Assembly (NCBI GenBank): GCA_035221665.1
Contig: CM069144.1
Location: 61,814,001 to 61,878,000, forward strand
Direction: 5' to 3'
Source of the DNA: Okamejei kenojei
Taxonomy: Eukaryota
Length of the DNA: 64,000 nt
Position numbers: made by a program. Positions 1-63,000 of this stretch are shown here, piece after piece. Every line of letters begins with the position of its first letter. Position 1 is the first letter of the stretch.

Positions 1-3000
1 TGCCCGAAGGGCTTTGTCCAATTATTTACGGCTGGGGTCAGCGAACCACAAGGTAGGGTCCCACCCTTTAATAACCAAGTTTATGAAGGGCGTTTTTAAC
101 TCCACTCCACCTAAAGCTAGGTACACACATATGGGATGTCAGTGTAGTCCTCACACTGCACCAGTTTCATCTCTGTCCCTACACCATCTTGCACTCAAAG
201 TGGTCATGCTCATGGCGCTGGCCTCAGCACAATGGGTCCAGACGCTACAAAAACTCAGACTGGACAGTATGGGTTCTTCCTGCAAGAACATCACCTTTTT
301 CGTTCGGGATCTCGTCAAGCAGAGCAGGCCAGGGGTACAGGGGCTCAAATTGAGTTTTATGGCATACCCCTCAGATCCACGAGTGTGTGTAGTATCATCT
401 ATAACCCAATACATAAAGGTCACCAAGAGCTTGAGAGGCTCGGAACTCTCCTTCTTTGTCAGCTACACCAAATCTCACAAACAGGTTATGGTGCAGACCA
501 TCTCTGGATGGATTAAGCAGGTTCTGGCGTGAGTGGACACTGACATTTTTAAACCTCATTCCACCAGGGCTGCATCGACATCAGCAGCAAGGGATATGGA
601 CGTGCCTCTTGACCACATTCTTGCGGCTGCGGGATGGTCGAATGAAAGGACGTACCAGAGGTTTTGTAATAAGCCTATCGCCAGATCCGGGATTTATGCT
701 GATTCTGTCTTAAGTTCTGTGTCACAGTTTCCCCGTGGGTGAAAGGGGTTACTGTTTATTTTCTTTCTTGTAATTAAAGCATTAGTATTGTTAAACATGT
801 CATGTTTTGAATGCATTAATTTTCTCACTCGTCCTGGTCAATTGATGCAGCTGTGACGCGTGGCCTCGTTCCTCGGCATGAAATCACAGACCTTCAAAGC
901 CTCCACGTAGTCATGTGACTCCGAAGTAAAATAGTAAGATTAAATGAGAACTTACCAGTTTGAAGTTTGATCGTTATTTTATGACCGTTAAATAAAATAA
1001 TTATGTCACAAATATAATATCCAATTTTGAAAGGATGTGGTAAGAGATTAATTATTGAAGGCAAACATGTTGCCTTCAAAACAACCAAAATGAACTCCAG
1101 GATGGGAAATGCCATCAGATAATCCATTGGAGAATGCCATCAGATATTGCATTTTTGACAGCTTCCTACCATCACAAAGCGCCGGGTTGGTTACGTTGGT
1201 TCTGAAGCCTGAACCACAACTGCACGTGAAGCTTCCGATTGTGTTGTTGCAGATTTGTTGGCATTTGGAGGTGTTGGTTTGCACATTCATTGATATCTAG
1301 GAGAAAATGCCCCATTATTTCATTTTTCAACAAAAAGCTGAACGTCAAATTGCATCACATTTTTTATATATCATCATGCTATCTTGTGTCAAAGTGCTCT
1401 TCCTAATGAAAATACAATTTATTTCTCCATAACATTGACTCAGCACAATCATTTTAATTGAAGTCTGAAATGAAATTGATCCTAGCACACAAGCTCACAG
1501 CAAATCATCATAAATCTCCAGTTAATAAACTTGCCAGATAATCGTTTGTTGAATGAAGACCTGTAGATTATGTAGGTCAAATGTAGGTGGCGTGGAGAAG
1601 AGAGCAGTGGGCAGCGAGGAGAGGAATAGAAGAAAAGAGAAAGGGGTGAATACCAGGTACCGACTGATAAAGTTGGGAGTACTTGACCAACATACCGTTT
1701 GGTAAAGGGATTGCATTGCAGAGGAGCTGACTGTATGATGGGGGAGCGAGAGACCCTCAGACTGGATGGCGTGAAGGGCAGAGAACTACAAGCTATAGGA
1801 TTGTATGACAAGCAGTAAGGAGGTAACATGGAGACAGATTGCATAATGTTTAGTGTTAAGGGTTTGATATGAGGCCGTCATTTAAAATGGAGGAAGCTGG
1901 AGATGAATTGGGAACTTTCTGATTGCACAGAGGTGGGACTGAAATAGGACACATGATTACAGGGTGCTGGGGTTGGGAGCGTTGGTGCAGTGAATGAACT
2001 AGAATGAGTAGTTGACTTGCCTGGGAGGAATAACAGTTTAACATCATCATAAAATCTATTTGGTCACTTTTGGAACAAGGTGATCCAAGTTCACCTGCAA
2101 TATTTAAAAAGCAGCATGCAATGGAGATTAACAAATGTAATAAAATAGATTTGTGCACAGTTTGACATATTAGTCACACATTGATCAATATCTGAAGGAA
2201 ACAATCCAATCACACCAGACTCAAACAAAAACAAAACTGCTGGAAGATCCCAACCAGTCAAGTGGCTTCTGTGAAAATAGAGACCAGTTGGCATTTTGGT
2301 TCAATGATCCTTTCTCAGGATGAGGTTAGAGTGGGGGTTTACAGTTTTAAAAGCAGAGCCAGAGAAAGGAGTGGTGTGTTAGAGAAAAGATGGAAATGAA
2401 ATAGGATTAGGTGTTAAAGGAGCAAGCATACAAGCGTTAGCAAGGTATTTTACAAATACAATTGAAAAATGAACAAATGCCTGATCATTAAATAAAATAA
2501 TGATGCAGCAAATATTTAACCTAATTTCAAATGGTTGTGGTAAGTGATTAACTGTTGAAGATAAACATGTTGCCTTAAAAACAATCAAAGTGAACCCTCG
2601 AATCAGAAATCCCCTAAGCTAATCCATTGGAGAATGCCATCAGATAGTCTGCATGTTTGACAGCTTCCTACCATCACAAAGCGCAGGGTCGTTCACATTG
2701 GTGCTGAAGCCTGGACCACAACTGCACATAAAGCTTCCGATTGTGTTGGTGCAGATTTGTTGACATTTGGAGGTGTTGGTTGCACATTCATCGATGTCTA
2801 GGACAAAATAACCCATTATTTCATTTTACAACAAATACTGAACATGCCAAATTTCATCACATTTCTAATATATCATCATGCTAAATTGTGTGTCAAAGTC
2901 CTCTTCCTAATGAATAGAAATGTTATTTCTCCATAACATTAATTTAGCACAATCATTTTAATTGAAGTCTGAAATAAAATCGATCCGACCACACAAGCTC

Positions 3001-60000: not shown

Positions 60001-63000
60001 AGAAAATGCCCCATTATTTCATTTTTCAACAAAAAGCTGAACGTCAAATTTCATCACATTTTTAATATATCATCATGCTTTCTTGTGTCAAAGTGCTCTT
60101 CCTAATGAAAATACAATTTATTTCTCCATAACATTGATTCAGCACAATCATTTTAATTGAAGTCTGAAATGAAATTGATCCTACCACACAAGCTCACAGC
60201 AAATCATCATAAATCTCCAGTTAATAAATTTGCCAGATAACCGTTGTTGAATGAAGACCTGTAGATTATGTAGGTCAAATAGAACCACAAGGTGGAATAT
60301 TTGCAGAGAGATTCTGATGCACTCTCATGGATATTTTAACCATTCCAGTCATTGGATTCTAGCCACCAGATTCAGATCCGACTCGTACGGTGTTACATCT
60401 TTTCCACATTGAAATGTGTCTCCAGGACTCCATTGAGCGAGGCTAGTTTGAGGATGCCTAACGTCACGTATCCAGTTAGACCAACGATGTGGCGTGGAGA
60501 AGAGAGCAGTGGGCAGCGAGGAGAGGAGGAGAGGAATGGAAGAAAAGAGAAAGGGGGTGAATATCAGGTACCGACTGATAAAGTTGGGAGTACTTGACCA
60601 ACATACCGTTTGGTAAAGGGATTGCATTGCAGAGGAGCTGACTGTATGATGGGGGAGCGAGAGACCCTCAGACTGGATGGCGTGAAGGGCAGAGAACTAC
60701 AAGCTATAGCATTGCATGACAAGCAGTAAGGAGGTAACATGGAGGCAGATTACATAATGTTCAGTGCTCAGAGTTCGATATGAGGCCATCATGTAAAATG
60801 TAGGAAGCTGGAGATGAATTGGGAACTTTCTGATTGCACAGAGGTGGGACTGAAATAGGACACATGATTACAGGGTGCTGGGGTTGGGAGCTTTGGTGCA
60901 GTGAATGAACTAGAATGAGTAGTTGACTTGCCTGGGAGGAATAACAGTGTAACATCATCATAAAATCTATTTGGTCACTTTTGGAACAAGGTGATCCAAG
61001 TTCACCTACAATATTTAAAAAGCATCATGCAATGGAGATTTACAAATGTAATAAAATAGATTTGTGCACAGTTTGACACATTAGTCACACATTGATCAAT
61101 ATCTGAAGGAAACAATCCAATCACACTAGACTCAAACAAAAACAAAACTGCTGGAAGACCCCAACCAGTCAAGTGGCTTCTGTGAAAATAGAGACCAGTT
61201 GGCATTTTGGTTCAATGATCCTTTCTCAGGATGAAGGTTATAGTGGGGGGTTTACAGTTTTAAAAGCAGAGCCAGAGAAAGGAGTGGTGTGTTAGAGAAA
61301 AGATGGAAATGAAATAGGATCAGGTGTTAAAAGGAGCAAGCATACAAGCGTTAGCAAGGTATTTTACAAATACAATTGAAAAATGAACAAAAGCCTGATC
61401 ATTAAATAAAATAATGATGCAGCAAATATTTAACCTAATTTCAAATGGTTGTGGTAAGTGATTAACTGTTGAAGATAAACATGTTGCCTTAAAAACAATC
61501 AAAGTGAACCCTCGAATCAGAAATCCCCTAAGCTAATCCATTGGAGAATGCCATCAGATAGTCTGCATGTTTGACAGCTTCCTACCATCACAAAGTGCAG
61601 GGTTGTTCACATTAATGCTGAAGCCTGGACCACAACTGCACATGAAGCTTCCGATTGTGTTGGTGCAGTTTTGTTGACATTTGGAGGTGTTGGTTGCACA
61701 TTCATCGATGTCTAGGACAAAATAACCCATTATTTCATTTTACAACAAATACTGAACATGCCAAATTTCATCACATTTCTAATATATCATCATGCTAAAT
61801 TGTGTGTCAAAGTCCTCTTCCTAATGAATAGAAATGTTATTTCTCCATAACATTAATTTAGCACAATCATTTTAATTGAAGTCTGAAATAAAATCGATCC
61901 GACCACACAAGCTCACAGCAAATGATCATGAATATCCAGTTAATAATTTTACCAGATAACCATTGCTGAATGAAGACCTGTAGATTATGTACAGTGCCCT
62001 CCCTAATGTTTGGGACATATTTTGTTGCATATCCCTTGTATGTAATGATTGCTTGAAGTCTCCAATTCATGGACATCGCCAGTTGCTGGGTGTCTTCTCT
62101 GGTGATGCTCTGCCAGGCCTGTATTGCAGCCATCTTTAGCTTTTGCTTGTTTTGGGGGGGTCGTCCCCTTCAGTTTTCTCTTCAGCATATAAAAGGCATG
62201 CTCAATAGGGTTCAGATCGGGTGACTTGGCCACTCAAGAATTGACCCATTTTTAGCTTTGAAAAACTCCTTTGTTGCTTTAGCAGTATGCTTTGGATCAT
62301 TGTCTTGCTATAGAATGAACCACTGGCCAATTAGTTTTGAGGCATTTGTTTGAACTTGAGCAGATAGGATGTGTCGATACACTTCAGTATTCATTATGCT
62401 ACTACCAACAACAGTTGTATCATCAATGAAGATAACTGAGCCAGTTCCTTCAGCAGCCATGCATGCCCAGGCCATAACACCTCCATCACTCTGTTTCACA
62501 GCTGAGGTAGTATGCTTTGGATCATGGCAGTTCCTTCTATCCTCCATACGTTGCTCATGCCATTACTCTGATATGTTAATCTTCATCTCATCTGTCCGAA
62601 ATACCTTTTTTTTCCCAGAACTGTGCTTACTCTTTTAAGTACTTCTTTCAAAATGTAACCTGGCCATCCTAATTTTGCGACTAACCAGTTTGCATCTTGC
62701 AGTTTAGCCTCTATATTTCTGTTCATGACGTTTTCTGCGGGCAGTGGTCATTGATAAATCCACACCTGACTCATGTAGAGTGTTTCTGATCTGTCGTATA
62801 GGTGTTTGTGGATTTTACTTCGGAGTCACGTGAGTGATTCCGTGAAGAAGCCCATTAGTTCGCATGTGCGTCATTACGTCTAACGCATGGCACAACAACG
62901 ATGGCATAACGCATGTAGCTCCACGCCTGCCAGCATTTTAAAAACCCTCAGGTAAGTGTTTAAAACTTAGTTGAGGTCGTTTCCTTGGGTTCTGTTACAG

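What the first reader, a model, noticed from the sequence alone, without database searches (positions are those of the whole stretch)
1170..61711. Expanding array of single-cbEGF cassette exons, amplified in 6-25 kb genomic units
Seen: twelve ~126-nt minus-strand exons, each exactly one cbEGF domain, all ag|...G|gtagga and phase 1-1. In transcription order they run B5-A5-B4-A4-C2-B3-A3-C1-B2-A2-B1-A1, with intron sequence leading to another B just past 64000. Nine are intact with all six Cys and the calcium-binding residues invariant while the introns accumulate indels. A2 vs B1 differ at 13 nt by hand count, 6 of them synonymous. Known: symmetric phase-1 EGF exons can be duplicated or skipped without losing frame, and tandem cbEGF arrays form rigid rods (fibrillin, fibulin, ADGRE families). 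Inference: an extracellular or surface protein whose rod length is changing by recent segmental duplication, effectively a coding copy-number repeat with multi-kb units. Conserved cbEGF proteins normally have highly diverged repeats, so near-identical ones suggest a lineage-specific gene or expansion.
[Added by the scan's program, not by the reader: the finding's places include an assembly gap (unread letters, written N; its length is only estimated) at 39507 to 39767. Whether the letters on both sides are continuous or in frame is not known: test that first.]
Basis: partly seen in the sequence, partly recalled or inferred. Interest (0 to 1): 0.85.

Follow-up and report, generated by a model that had tools for sequence, protein, structure and literature searches.

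The report
Duplicated calcium-binding EGF exon array
The window lies inside one large, probably shark-like gene in which single-domain calcium-binding EGF exons were copied many times by multi-kilobase duplications, a known way of lengthening a surface or secreted glycoprotein.

Summary
Twelve minus-strand copies of one phase 1-1 cbEGF exon lie exactly where stated, in the stated order, all with ..CCTAG| and |GTAGGA. Nine are 126 nt and intact. A1, C1 and C2 are 127 nt and broken.

The copies sit in nested duplications. An A/B exon pair is carried in ~6 kb and ~25 kb units that are 96-98% alike, with tracts about 99.8% alike that point to gene conversion or very recent copying. A LINE insertion with a 5-nt target duplication in one unit and an empty site in the other shows the units are real, separate loci. 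The N gap lies in a transposon-filled intron, 8.6 kb or more from any exon.

Evidence for constraint is moderate. None of 21 variable exon sites is disruptive, against 4 of 12 on the dead C lineage.

Closest relatives are uncharacterised mucin-like cbEGF proteins of the catshark Scyliorhinus torazame (81%). No end of the gene lies in the window, so its family is open. Expression could not be tested.

Intragenic cbEGF-exon duplication with exon skipping is already described for ADGRE1, so this is a new member of a known kind.

The parts
1170..1296 (-). Exon A1, 127 nt. It equals A2 in sequence (0 of 126 aligned bases differ) but carries a 1-nt homopolymer insertion that shifts the frame. This may be an assembly indel.
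2672..2797 (-). Exon B1, 126 nt, intact cbEGF (DIDEC...). Identical to B4 over the exon plus 300 nt on each side.
7158..7283 (-). Exon A2, 126 nt, intact cbEGF (DINEC...).
8657..8782 (-). Exon B2, 126 nt, intact cbEGF.
25173..25299 (-). Pseudo-exon C1, 127 nt. The first Cys codon is TGA, Cys16 is Phe, Cys41 is Phe, and there is a 1-nt insertion. Splice sites are kept, but the pyrimidine tract is weaker.
29064..29189 (-). Exon A3, 126 nt, intact cbEGF (KNTNG variant).
30770..30895 (-). Exon B3, 126 nt, intact cbEGF (QQNC / SINV variant).
49996..50122 (-). Pseudo-exon C2, 127 nt. It shares the TGA, Cys41Phe and the insertion with C1, so these defects predate the 25-kb duplication.
53928..54053 (-). 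Exon A4, 126 nt, intact cbEGF.
55430..55555 (-). Exon B4, 126 nt, intact cbEGF. Used as the search query.
59870..59995 (-). Exon A5, 126 nt, intact cbEGF.
61586..61711 (-). Exon B5, 126 nt, intact cbEGF. The exon differs from B4 at 6 of 126 nt while the 600 nt of flanks differ at 2 of 599. Three of the exon changes are shared with B3, a mosaic that suggests gene conversion.
2070..2240 (-). Relic D1. It has an acceptor and the first 15 or so codons of an EGF exon (DIDQCVTNMSNCAQI), followed by unrelated sequence.
8057..8227 (-). Relic D2, the same decayed half-exon.
30167..30337 (-). Relic D3.
54828..54998 (-). Relic D4.
60981..61151 (-). Relic D5.
63453..63625 (-). Relic D6. Its acceptor AG is lost. 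It lies in the intron that leads to a further B exon expected just past 64000.
3493..6970 (.). Short spacer 's', intron between A2 and B1. Further copies lie at 25469-28890, 50292-53757 and 56252-59699. It holds a LINE RT fragment and a CpG-rich block.
9117..25130 (.). Long spacer L1, a 16-kb intron. It holds a DIRS-like RT element on the plus strand at about 10.5-13.8 kb and a Pao-like element at about 19.4-22.9 kb.
31362..47328 (.). Long spacer L2, paralogue of L1 at 96-97.8% with the same transposons. It contains the N gap.
39507..39767 (.). Assembly gap of 261 N inside L2. It is intronic and was not filled.
47329..49948 (-). CR1-like LINE (endonuclease and RT ORFs) inserted only in unit 2. 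It lies about 47 nt downstream of C2, with a 5-nt target-site duplication and an empty site at about 25128 in unit 1.
62017..63120 (.). Truncated 1.1-kb copy of the start of the long spacer. It joins directly to B-to-A intron sequence (63118-64000), so no A exon lies between B5 and the next B.

Best explanation
The window is an internal stretch of one large minus-strand gene of a cartilaginous-fish-like genome. It holds nothing of that gene except an array of cassette exons. Each exon encodes one 42-residue calcium-binding EGF module with several N-glycosylation sequons.

Shown:
- An old duplication produced two exon types, A and B. Their introns are 15-20% diverged.
- A third exon (C) and a half-exon (D) died.
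- The B-D-A block, with transposon-laden introns, was then copied as a ~25 kb unit and as a ~6 kb deletion derivative. Both short units share the same junction.
- The copies have since exchanged sequence, leaving tracts with 0-0.3% divergence beside tracts with 2-5%.

Inferred:
- Every exon is phase 1-1, so any number of them can be included or skipped without losing frame.
- The intact exons are spliced head to tail into a stiff, calcium-stabilised, glycosylated rod. The rod would hold a mucin-like or receptor domain away from the membrane or matrix.
- C1, C2 and perhaps A1 are skipped.
- Unequal crossing-over between units changes module number over evolutionary time.
For: Anatomy:
- 12 of 12 copies have the same acceptor and donor and the same phase.
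- 9 of 12 are open, with six Cys and the D-I-D/N-E-C and C-x-N-x-x-G-S-F-x-C-x-C motifs.
- EGF_CA is found in 6 of 6 tested.

Real duplication:
- Units are 96-98% alike with distinct junctions.
- A unit-specific LINE has a target-site duplication, and the other unit has the empty site.

Exchange between copies:
- U1 and U4 differ at about 6 of 2400 nt. U2 and U5 differ at 2 of about 1730 nt. Elsewhere divergence is 2-5%.

Constraint:
- Among the 9 intact exons there are 21 variable sites, 9 synonymous and 12 not. None gives a stop, and none hits a Cys, D1, E4, N18 or F23. The chance of 0 disruptive in 21 is 0.007-0.008 at the local ts/tv of 1.3.
- The C lineage has 4 disruptive events among 12. 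Fisher p is 0.012, or 0.042 if A1's indel is counted as real.
- pN/pS between A and B is 0.27-0.52.
- No indel occurs in the 9 intact exons, against 54-76 gap columns in 600 nt of flank between A and B.

Relatives:
- 81% identity to a cbEGF of S. torazame scyTo_0015748.
- The same species' 'uncharacterized protein' isoforms have a signal peptide, Pro/Thr/Ser repeats, a cbEGF and a tail.

Precedent:
- ADGRE1 has single-exon cbEGFs, an internal duplication from 7 to 14, and skipping of every EGF exon (PMC6174849, passages read).
Against: - No transcript evidence could be obtained.
- 3 of 12 exons are broken yet keep their splice sites, and six further relics exist.
- The synonymous excess alone is weak: P(9 or more of 21) is 0.045-0.057 at ts/tv 1.3 and 0.07-0.09 at 2.0.
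- Exons are only modestly better conserved than the 142 nt of intron upstream (A vs B: 9.5-15% against 15-20%).
- Most copies are young, so their intactness is not independent evidence.
- No first, last or non-EGF exon lies in the window.
- No annotated protein carrying these exact exons was found among the candidates.
- The AlphaFold model of one module was of low confidence (pLDDT 59).
Confidence: 0.62

Rival explanations
1. This is a dying or dead array. The exons are relics of a former gene or of surplus duplicates. The nine open copies are open only because the duplications are young.
For: - 3 of 12 copies are broken and there are 6 half-exon relics.
- C1 and C2 keep consensus splice sites, so inclusion would truncate the product.
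- Introns are filled with DIRS-like, Pao-like, LINE and Tc1-like elements.
- The synonymous excess is borderline.
- The C exon is no better conserved than its intron (13.5-15% against 9-17%).
Against: - None of the 21 variable sites in A and B is disruptive, against 4 of 12 in C.
- A and B stayed intact while their introns diverged by 15-20% and gained many indels.
- Modules 81% alike are part of annotated catshark proteins.
Confidence: 0.2
2. This is an assembly artefact. Part of the array is a false duplication, or the reverse, a collapse, produced while assembling a repeat. An example would be two haplotypes or misplaced contigs joined at the gap.
For: - There is an N gap inside one unit.
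- A block of about 4 kb (983-5000 against 53757-57780) shows only 7 substitutions but 10 indels. Seven of the indels are 1-nt changes in short homopolymers, the signature of consensus error.
- B1 and B4 are identical over 726 nt.
Against: - Most unit pairs differ by 2-4%, with different junctions (short against long unit, truncated spacer at 62017).
- A LINE with a target-site duplication is present in one unit and absent, with an intact empty site, in the other.
- Five A/B pairs of two protein subtypes cannot come from two haplotypes.
Confidence: 0.08
3. This is a cluster of several short genes rather than one gene. Each unit would carry its own promoter, the CpG-rich block in every 's' spacer, and would splice into a B-A pair.
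For: Four CpG-island-like blocks (GC 0.65-0.71, CpG observed/expected about 1.0, against 0.48 for the window) lie about 2.3 kb upstream, in minus-strand sense, of B1, B3, B4 and a C exon.
Against: - Every exon is an internal phase 1-1 exon.
- No signal-peptide, Pro/Thr/Ser-repeat or terminal exon of the catshark relatives maps to the window.
- The last exon of each pair still ends in an open donor.
- The CpG block abuts a LINE RT fragment and may be transposon-derived.
Confidence: 0.08

Closest known systems
ADGRE family (EGF-TM7 adhesion GPCRs: ADGRE1/F4-80, ADGRE2, ADGRE5/CD97)
   Same: - cbEGF modules are each encoded by a single exon that can be skipped.
- ADGRE1 shows an internal duplication of the EGF exon block (7 to 14 in ruminants and horses) and rapid evolution (PMC6174849, abstract and passages).
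- The best solved-structure match of the B4 module is ADGRE5, 9mqr_A, aligned over residues 1-41.
   Different: - No GAIN/GPS or 7TM exon is in the window.
- The modules here are 42 residues, with a two-residue shorter second loop in the alignment.
- Copies are far more alike than ADGRE EGFs.
- Introns are multi-kb and filled with transposons.
- Membership is untestable from this window.
Scyliorhinus torazame uncharacterised proteins (scyTo_0015748, and 'uncharacterized protein' isoforms X2/X5; P0015, P0059, P0060)
   Same: - They give the highest module identity found: 81% for B4 (71-81% for the intact copies against the second module in the tblastn).
- The modules share the same [29 protein letters not shown] motif string and are sequon-rich.
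   Different: - Those models have only 1-2 cbEGFs, plus a signal peptide, Pro/Thr/Ser repeats and a 40-residue tail. None of these maps to the window.
- Orthology is unknown.
Unnamed adhesion GPCR P0068 from the representative library (21 EGF_CA + SEA + GPS + 7tm_2)
   Same: It has a long run of near-identical cbEGF modules in two alternating types, like the A/B alternation here.
   Different: - Its modules are 49 residues and only about 55% identical to B4.
- Its source organism and gene structure are unknown.
- No SEA, GPS or 7TM sequence is in the window.
LPA kringle IV type 2 coding repeat
   Same: It is a multi-kb genomic unit holding whole in-frame exons, repeated head to tail. [quoted passage not shown] That each unit holds two exons is recalled.
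   Different: - It is a kringle, not an EGF.
- Its units are far more uniform.
- Its polymorphism within a population is proven, whereas here it is untested.
Fibrillin / LTBP / fibulin cbEGF rods
   Same: They have tandem cbEGF modules with the same calcium-site and Asn-hydroxylation consensus, and they give many high-scoring hits.
   Different: - Identity is only about 40-55%.
- No TB/8-Cys or other exon maps to the window.
- The repeats of those proteins are old and diverged.

Membership tests
Calcium-binding EGF domain (Pfam PF07645) | Scores above the curated Pfam threshold | tested here: met
   6 of 6 distinct intact translations score 42.4-45.1 bits against a cut-off of 27.
Calcium-binding EGF domain (Pfam PF07645) | Six cysteines in EGF spacing | tested here: met
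   Cys at 5, 12, 16, 25, 27 and 41 is invariant in the 6 distinct intact sequences. Disulfide pairing itself was not tested.
Calcium-binding EGF domain (Pfam PF07645) | N-terminal D/N-x-D/N-E/Q-C motif, plus Asn and an aromatic residue in C-x-D/N-x(4)-F/Y-x-C-x-C (consensus recalled) | tested here: met
   DIDEC or DINEC, and C16-x-N18-T-x-G-S-F23-x-C25-S-C27, occur in all intact copies.
Calcium-binding EGF domain (Pfam PF07645) | EGF fold | tested here: inconclusive
   The AlphaFold2 model of one module from a 6-row alignment has pLDDT 59.4. No fold search was made on it.
ADGRE / other adhesion GPCR | GAIN/GPS autoproteolysis domain and secretin-type 7TM in the same gene | not testable with these tools
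   tblastn with five relatives (P0068, P0209, P0006, P0049, P0183), four of them adhesion GPCRs, gave 411 HSPs, 0 outside the 12 exons. The gene's ends lie outside the window.
ADGRE / other adhesion GPCR | One cbEGF per symmetric exon, allowing cassette use | tested here: met
   12 of 12 copies are phase 1-1 single-module exons. Actual skipping was not tested.
Catshark mucin-like cbEGF proteins (P0059/P0060) | Signal peptide, Pro/Thr/Ser repeats and the VQLKVILRL... tail next to the cbEGF | tested here: not met
   tblastn of P0060 and P0015 matches only the EGF exons and D relics in the window. These parts may lie outside the window.
Fibrillin / LTBP | TB (8-Cys) domains interspersed with cbEGFs | tested here: not met
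   tblastn with LTBP, fibrillin and other relatives gave 292 HSPs, 0 outside the 12 exons. The test covers the window only.
Coding multi-kb tandem repeat (LPA KIV-2 type) | Head-to-tail genomic units, each holding whole in-frame exons | tested here: met
   Units [s-A-intron-B] lie at 3493-9123, 25469-31236, 50292-55896 and 56252-62017, with a partial one at 983-3493.
Coding multi-kb tandem repeat (LPA KIV-2 type) | Unit number varies between individuals | not testable with these tools
   No reads or second genomes of this species were available.

The most novel reading that the evidence does not exclude
The array belongs to an uncharacterised, elasmobranch-restricted family of mucin-like glycoproteins. 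Its cbEGF rod is kept uniform in scaffold by ongoing gene conversion, while the copies are diversified specifically in their N-glycan pattern.

Five of the 12 non-synonymous variable sites create or destroy an N-x-S/T sequon, where 8-16% would be expected (P 0.002-0.034; post hoc). The copies carry 1, 2 or 3 sequons at shifting positions.

Combined with cassette splicing and unit-number change, this would give a surface molecule whose length and glycan display are both tunable. That fits a role in host-microbe or self/non-self contact.
Probability: 0.15. Interest if true: 0.65.

Novelty: new member of a known kind. Interest (0 to 1): 0.4.

Why it matters
If the exons are expressed, this is a clear vertebrate example outside mammals of protein length being set by multi-kb coding repeats. 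All stages are visible in one window: live exons, a dead exon copied along with the unit, half-exon relics, a deletion-derived short unit, conversion tracts and a dated transposon insertion.

It also flags a catshark-type gene family (mucin-like plus cbEGF) with no assigned function.

Practically, gene predictors and short reads will mis-handle such a locus. The frameshift in A1 should not be trusted without raw reads.

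Tried and rejected
1. SEA-domain idea for the catshark tail. From memory the tail resembled the start of a SEA domain. Pfam at E up to 10 gave only DUF7123 at E 0.22, and BLASTP against the SEA-bearing P0068 aligned only EGF modules. Not supported.

2. Full-length relatives. Searching longer proteins with P0209 residues 74-250 returned only generic multi-cbEGF proteins of 55% identity or less among the 120 listed of 1402. Closer relatives lower in the list cannot be excluded.

3. The representative search with the B4 module gave 7651 hits. The top 150 were 39-57% identical except P0209 at 70%.

4. ESM Atlas gave no usable hit for P0060 and only generic cbEGF clusters below 0.9 for P0209.

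5. The listing of cluster members could not be run, so the source of P0209 and P0068 is unknown.

6. AlphaFold2 of one module gave low confidence, so no fold search was made.

7. Tandem Repeats Finder found no array with period 500 or less at score 80 or more, and Rfam found no family at gathering score.

8. Literature searches found no report of this gene or of a shark cbEGF exon array. One search was swamped by EGFR papers.

9. A first flank comparison suggested that C flanks were unalignable (about 45% different). A finer alignment showed about 143 nt of upstream intron and 25-30 nt downstream are homologous.

10. An early Fisher test used a hand count of 5 of 13 for C. It was replaced by the scripted count of 4 of 12.

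11. Complex prediction, genome contigs (prokaryotes only) and the phage, plasmid and E. coli collections were not used because they cannot bear on a vertebrate intron-exon array.

Full report
**Scope and limits**

Nothing suggests the window is human. The closest protein is from the catshark Scyliorhinus torazame. The introns carry DIRS-like, Pao-like, CR1-like LINE and Tc1-like elements. The restriction on human contigs therefore did not apply.

All protein searches and the one fold were made exon by exon. Properties of module pairs, such as the inter-module calcium site and rod geometry, are inferred and were not modelled.

No eukaryotic genome, read or transcript collection was available. 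Expression, copy number in other individuals and the orthologous locus stayed unchecked.

**1. The observation**

A pattern scan found ten open D-x-D/N-E-C frames on the minus strand and one N run, 39507-39767. blastn with one copy found twelve copies at 85.8-100% identity.

The alignment shows that all twelve are preceded by ..CCTAG and followed by GTAGGAAG. Exact limits are given in the parts list.

Nine copies are 126 nt. Read from the G of the acceptor, each gives 42 residues with six Cys. Three copies are 127 nt:
- A1 has one extra base in a short homopolymer.
- C1 and C2 share a TGA at the first Cys codon, a Cys41Phe change and a 1-nt insertion. C1 also has Cys16Phe.

The transcription order B5-A5-B4-A4-C2-B3-A3-C1-B2-A2-B1-A1 is right. 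All six distinct intact translations pass Pfam EGF_CA at 42-45 bits against a cut-off of 27.

**2. The gap**

The N run lies in the second long spacer. Sequence up to 39478 and from 39768 aligns, in the same orientation and order, to 17101 and 17204 of the first long spacer. The two sides are therefore consistent with one continuous spacer.

The gap is 8.6 kb from B3 and 10.2 kb from C2, so no exon or frame depends on it. In a repeat of this kind, collinearity would look the same if whole units were missing at the gap, so the unit count is a minimum. The gap was not filled.

**3. Architecture**

Self-comparison shows nested units. In plus-strand order the window reads as follows.

| Segment | Coordinates |
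|---|---|
| A1, intron, B1 | 983-3493 |
| s, A2, intron, B2 | 3493-9123 |
| Long spacer L1 | 9117-25130 |
| C1 | within 25126-25469 |
| s, A3, intron, B3 | 25469-31236 |
| Long spacer L2 | 31362-47328 |
| LINE | 47329-49948 |
| C2 | within 49949-50292 |
| s, A4, intron, B4 | 50292-55896 |
| s, A5, intron, B5 | 56252-62017 |
| Truncated spacer start | 62017-63120 |
| B-to-A intron sequence | 63118-64000 |

The last segment ends 58 nt before a further B exon would begin.

The two short units share the same junction (3493 and 56252). There the first roughly 400 nt after B join directly to 's'. They therefore look like one deletion derivative of the long unit that was later copied.

Both long spacers contain the same transposons, so those insertions predate the 25-kb duplication:
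- an RT ORF with DIRS-like neighbours;
- a Pao peptidase.

The LINE next to C2 has endonuclease and RT ORFs. It is flanked by a 5-nt duplication, and the site in unit 1 is empty. This is good evidence that the two units are separate loci with separate histories and not an assembly duplicate.

**4. Relics**

tblastn with the catshark proteins also hit a weak EGF-like stretch in every B-to-A intron. It consists of an acceptor (ttccttcag) and about 15 codons (DIDQCVTNMSNCAQI), followed by unrelated sequence. There are six copies, and the sixth has lost the AG. The ancestral block was therefore B-D-A, with D already dead before amplification.

**5. Exchange between copies**

Divergence along the aligned units is a mosaic.
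- U1 and U4 differ at about 6 of 2400 positions.
- U2 and U5 differ at 2 of the first ~1730 positions.
- The same pairs differ by 2-5% elsewhere.
- B1 and B4 are identical over 726 nt.
- B5 has B4-like flanks (2 of 599 differ) but an exon with 6 of 126 differences, three of them shared with B3.

This pattern fits gene conversion or unequal exchange layered on older duplications.

In the nearly identical block 983-5000 against 53757-57780 there are 7 substitutions and 10 indels. Seven of the indels are 1-nt changes in short homopolymers, and A1's 'frameshift' is one of them. That ratio is typical of consensus error. A1 may in fact be intact, and the assembly here should be treated with care.

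**6. Is there selection?**

Among the nine intact exons, 21 sites vary: 9 synonymous and 12 not (listing, classified by me).
- With the local ts/tv of 1.3 (126 transitions, 97 transversions), about 24-25% of random changes would be synonymous. P(9 or more of 21) is 0.045-0.057, which is weak.
- About 21% of random changes would give a stop or hit one of the six Cys, D1, E4, N18 or F23. None of the 21 does, P 0.007-0.008.
- The dead C lineage is an internal control. It has 12 private events, 4 of them disruptive. Fisher p is 0.012, or 0.042 if A1's insertion is counted as a real disruptive event.
- pN/pS between A and B copies is 0.27-0.52.
- A and B exons differ by 9.5-15%, the 142 nt upstream by 15-20%, and the wider flanks by 17-20% with 54-76 gap columns. 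The nine exons have no indel.
- The C exon is no better conserved than its own upstream intron. It looks like a chimera, A-like upstream and B-like downstream.

Taken together, A and B were under purifying selection for most of their history. The case is moderate, because few independent changes are available.

**7. What gene?**

The best solved-structure match is ADGRE5/CD97 (9mqr_A), with one module aligned over residues 1-41. Notch, NELL, fibrillin and LDLR cbEGFs follow.

The word-indexed protein search gave 58 hits among 71 candidates.
- Most are LTBP or fibrillin-like at 41-69% identity.
- One stands out: S. torazame scyTo_0015748 (139 aa, two cbEGFs and a tail), at 81% over the whole module.
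- Its tail recovers two RefSeq 'uncharacterized protein' isoforms of the same species. They have a signal peptide, Pro/Thr/Ser-rich N-glycosylated repeats, one cbEGF and the same tail.

The exhaustive representative search gave 7651 hits. Only P0209 is close, at 70% identity: three cbEGFs followed by a Thr/Ser/Pro-rich stretch, source unknown.

Among the higher-identity long hits, P0068 is an adhesion GPCR with 21 near-identical cbEGFs in two alternating types, then SEA, GPS and 7TM. Long uniform cbEGF arrays therefore exist elsewhere.

None of these relatives' non-EGF parts maps to the window. The family, whether a mucin-like secreted or membrane glycoprotein or an adhesion GPCR, cannot be decided from this window.

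**8. Mechanism proposed**

Shown:
- symmetric single-module exons;
- real nested duplication;
- sequence exchange between copies;
- constraint on the A and B exons.

Inferred from established knowledge of cbEGF proteins (recalled):
- Consecutive cbEGFs bind calcium at their interface and form a stiff rod.
- Phase 1-1 exons can be added, lost or skipped without a frame change.

The product would then be a glycosylated rod of at least ten modules from this window alone. C1, C2 and the D relics would be skipped. Module number would change by unequal crossing-over between 6-kb and 25-kb units.

**9. A lead: N-glycan sequons**

The copies carry 1 (B1, B2, B4), 2 (B3, B5) or 3 (A copies) N-x-S/T sequons at shifting positions. 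Five of the 12 non-synonymous variable sites create or destroy a sequon, against 8-16% expected (P 0.002-0.034). The test was devised after seeing the data and rests on few events, so it is a lead and not a finding.

**10. Comparison with what is known, and novelty**

ADGRE1 has cbEGFs encoded by single exons, a duplication of the whole 7-exon block in ruminants and horses, and RNA-seq evidence that every EGF exon can be skipped (PMC6174849; abstract and passages read). Its supplements were not seen.

Three literature searches found no report of this locus or of a shark cbEGF exon array.

The finding is a well-preserved new example of a known process in an uncharacterised gene family. I rate it a new member of a known kind, with interest 0.4.

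Noticed in passing
window 2070-2240, 8057-8227, 30167-30337, 54828-54998, 60981-61151, 63453-63625 (minus strand): Every B-to-A intron holds a decayed half-EGF exon. It has an acceptor and about 15 codons (DIDQCVTNMSNCAQI), followed by unrelated sequence. The sixth copy has lost its AG.
   Followed up: yes
window 5100-5650, 27036-27580, 51884-52433, 57840-58378: A CpG-island-like block of about 550 nt (GC 0.65-0.71, CpG observed/expected about 1.0, against 0.48 for the window). It occurs once in each short spacer, next to a LINE RT fragment. Whether it derives from a transposon or is a promoter is unknown.
   Followed up: partly
window 47329-49948, empty site near 25128: A CR1-like LINE with a (CATAGAAA)n-type tail and a 5-nt target-site duplication. 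It is inserted about 47 nt downstream of pseudo-exon C2 only, and the paralogous site beside C1 is empty.
   Followed up: yes
window 983-5000 against 53757-57780: In this nearly identical block, 1-nt homopolymer indels (7) are as frequent as substitutions (7). This suggests consensus indel errors in the assembly. One of these indels is the 'frameshift' of exon A1 at 1278.
   Followed up: partly
window 10559-13760 and 32820-36139 (plus strand); 19447-22949 and 42262-45532: A DIRS-like retroelement (RT ORF plus ORFs with an HPLIS.FM.G.FN motif) and a Pao-like element (Peptidase_A17). Both are present in both long spacers, so they inserted before the 25-kb duplication. A fragment of a similar DIRS-like ORF lies at 2-532.
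   Followed up: partly
the nine intact exons (coordinates in parts): Differences between copies are enriched for gain or loss of N-glycosylation sequons: 5 of 12 non-synonymous sites, against 8-16% expected. This is a post hoc observation.
   Followed up: partly
P0015 residues 1-15 against window 54099-54055: The N-terminus of the older catshark model scyTo_0015748 aligns to what is intron in the window (translation upstream of the acceptor). That model probably starts inside an intron.
   Followed up: no
window 31356-31730 (minus strand): A Tc1/mariner-type DDE_3 transposase fragment lies at the start of the second long spacer. A matching ORF fragment lies at 61867-62169.
   Followed up: no
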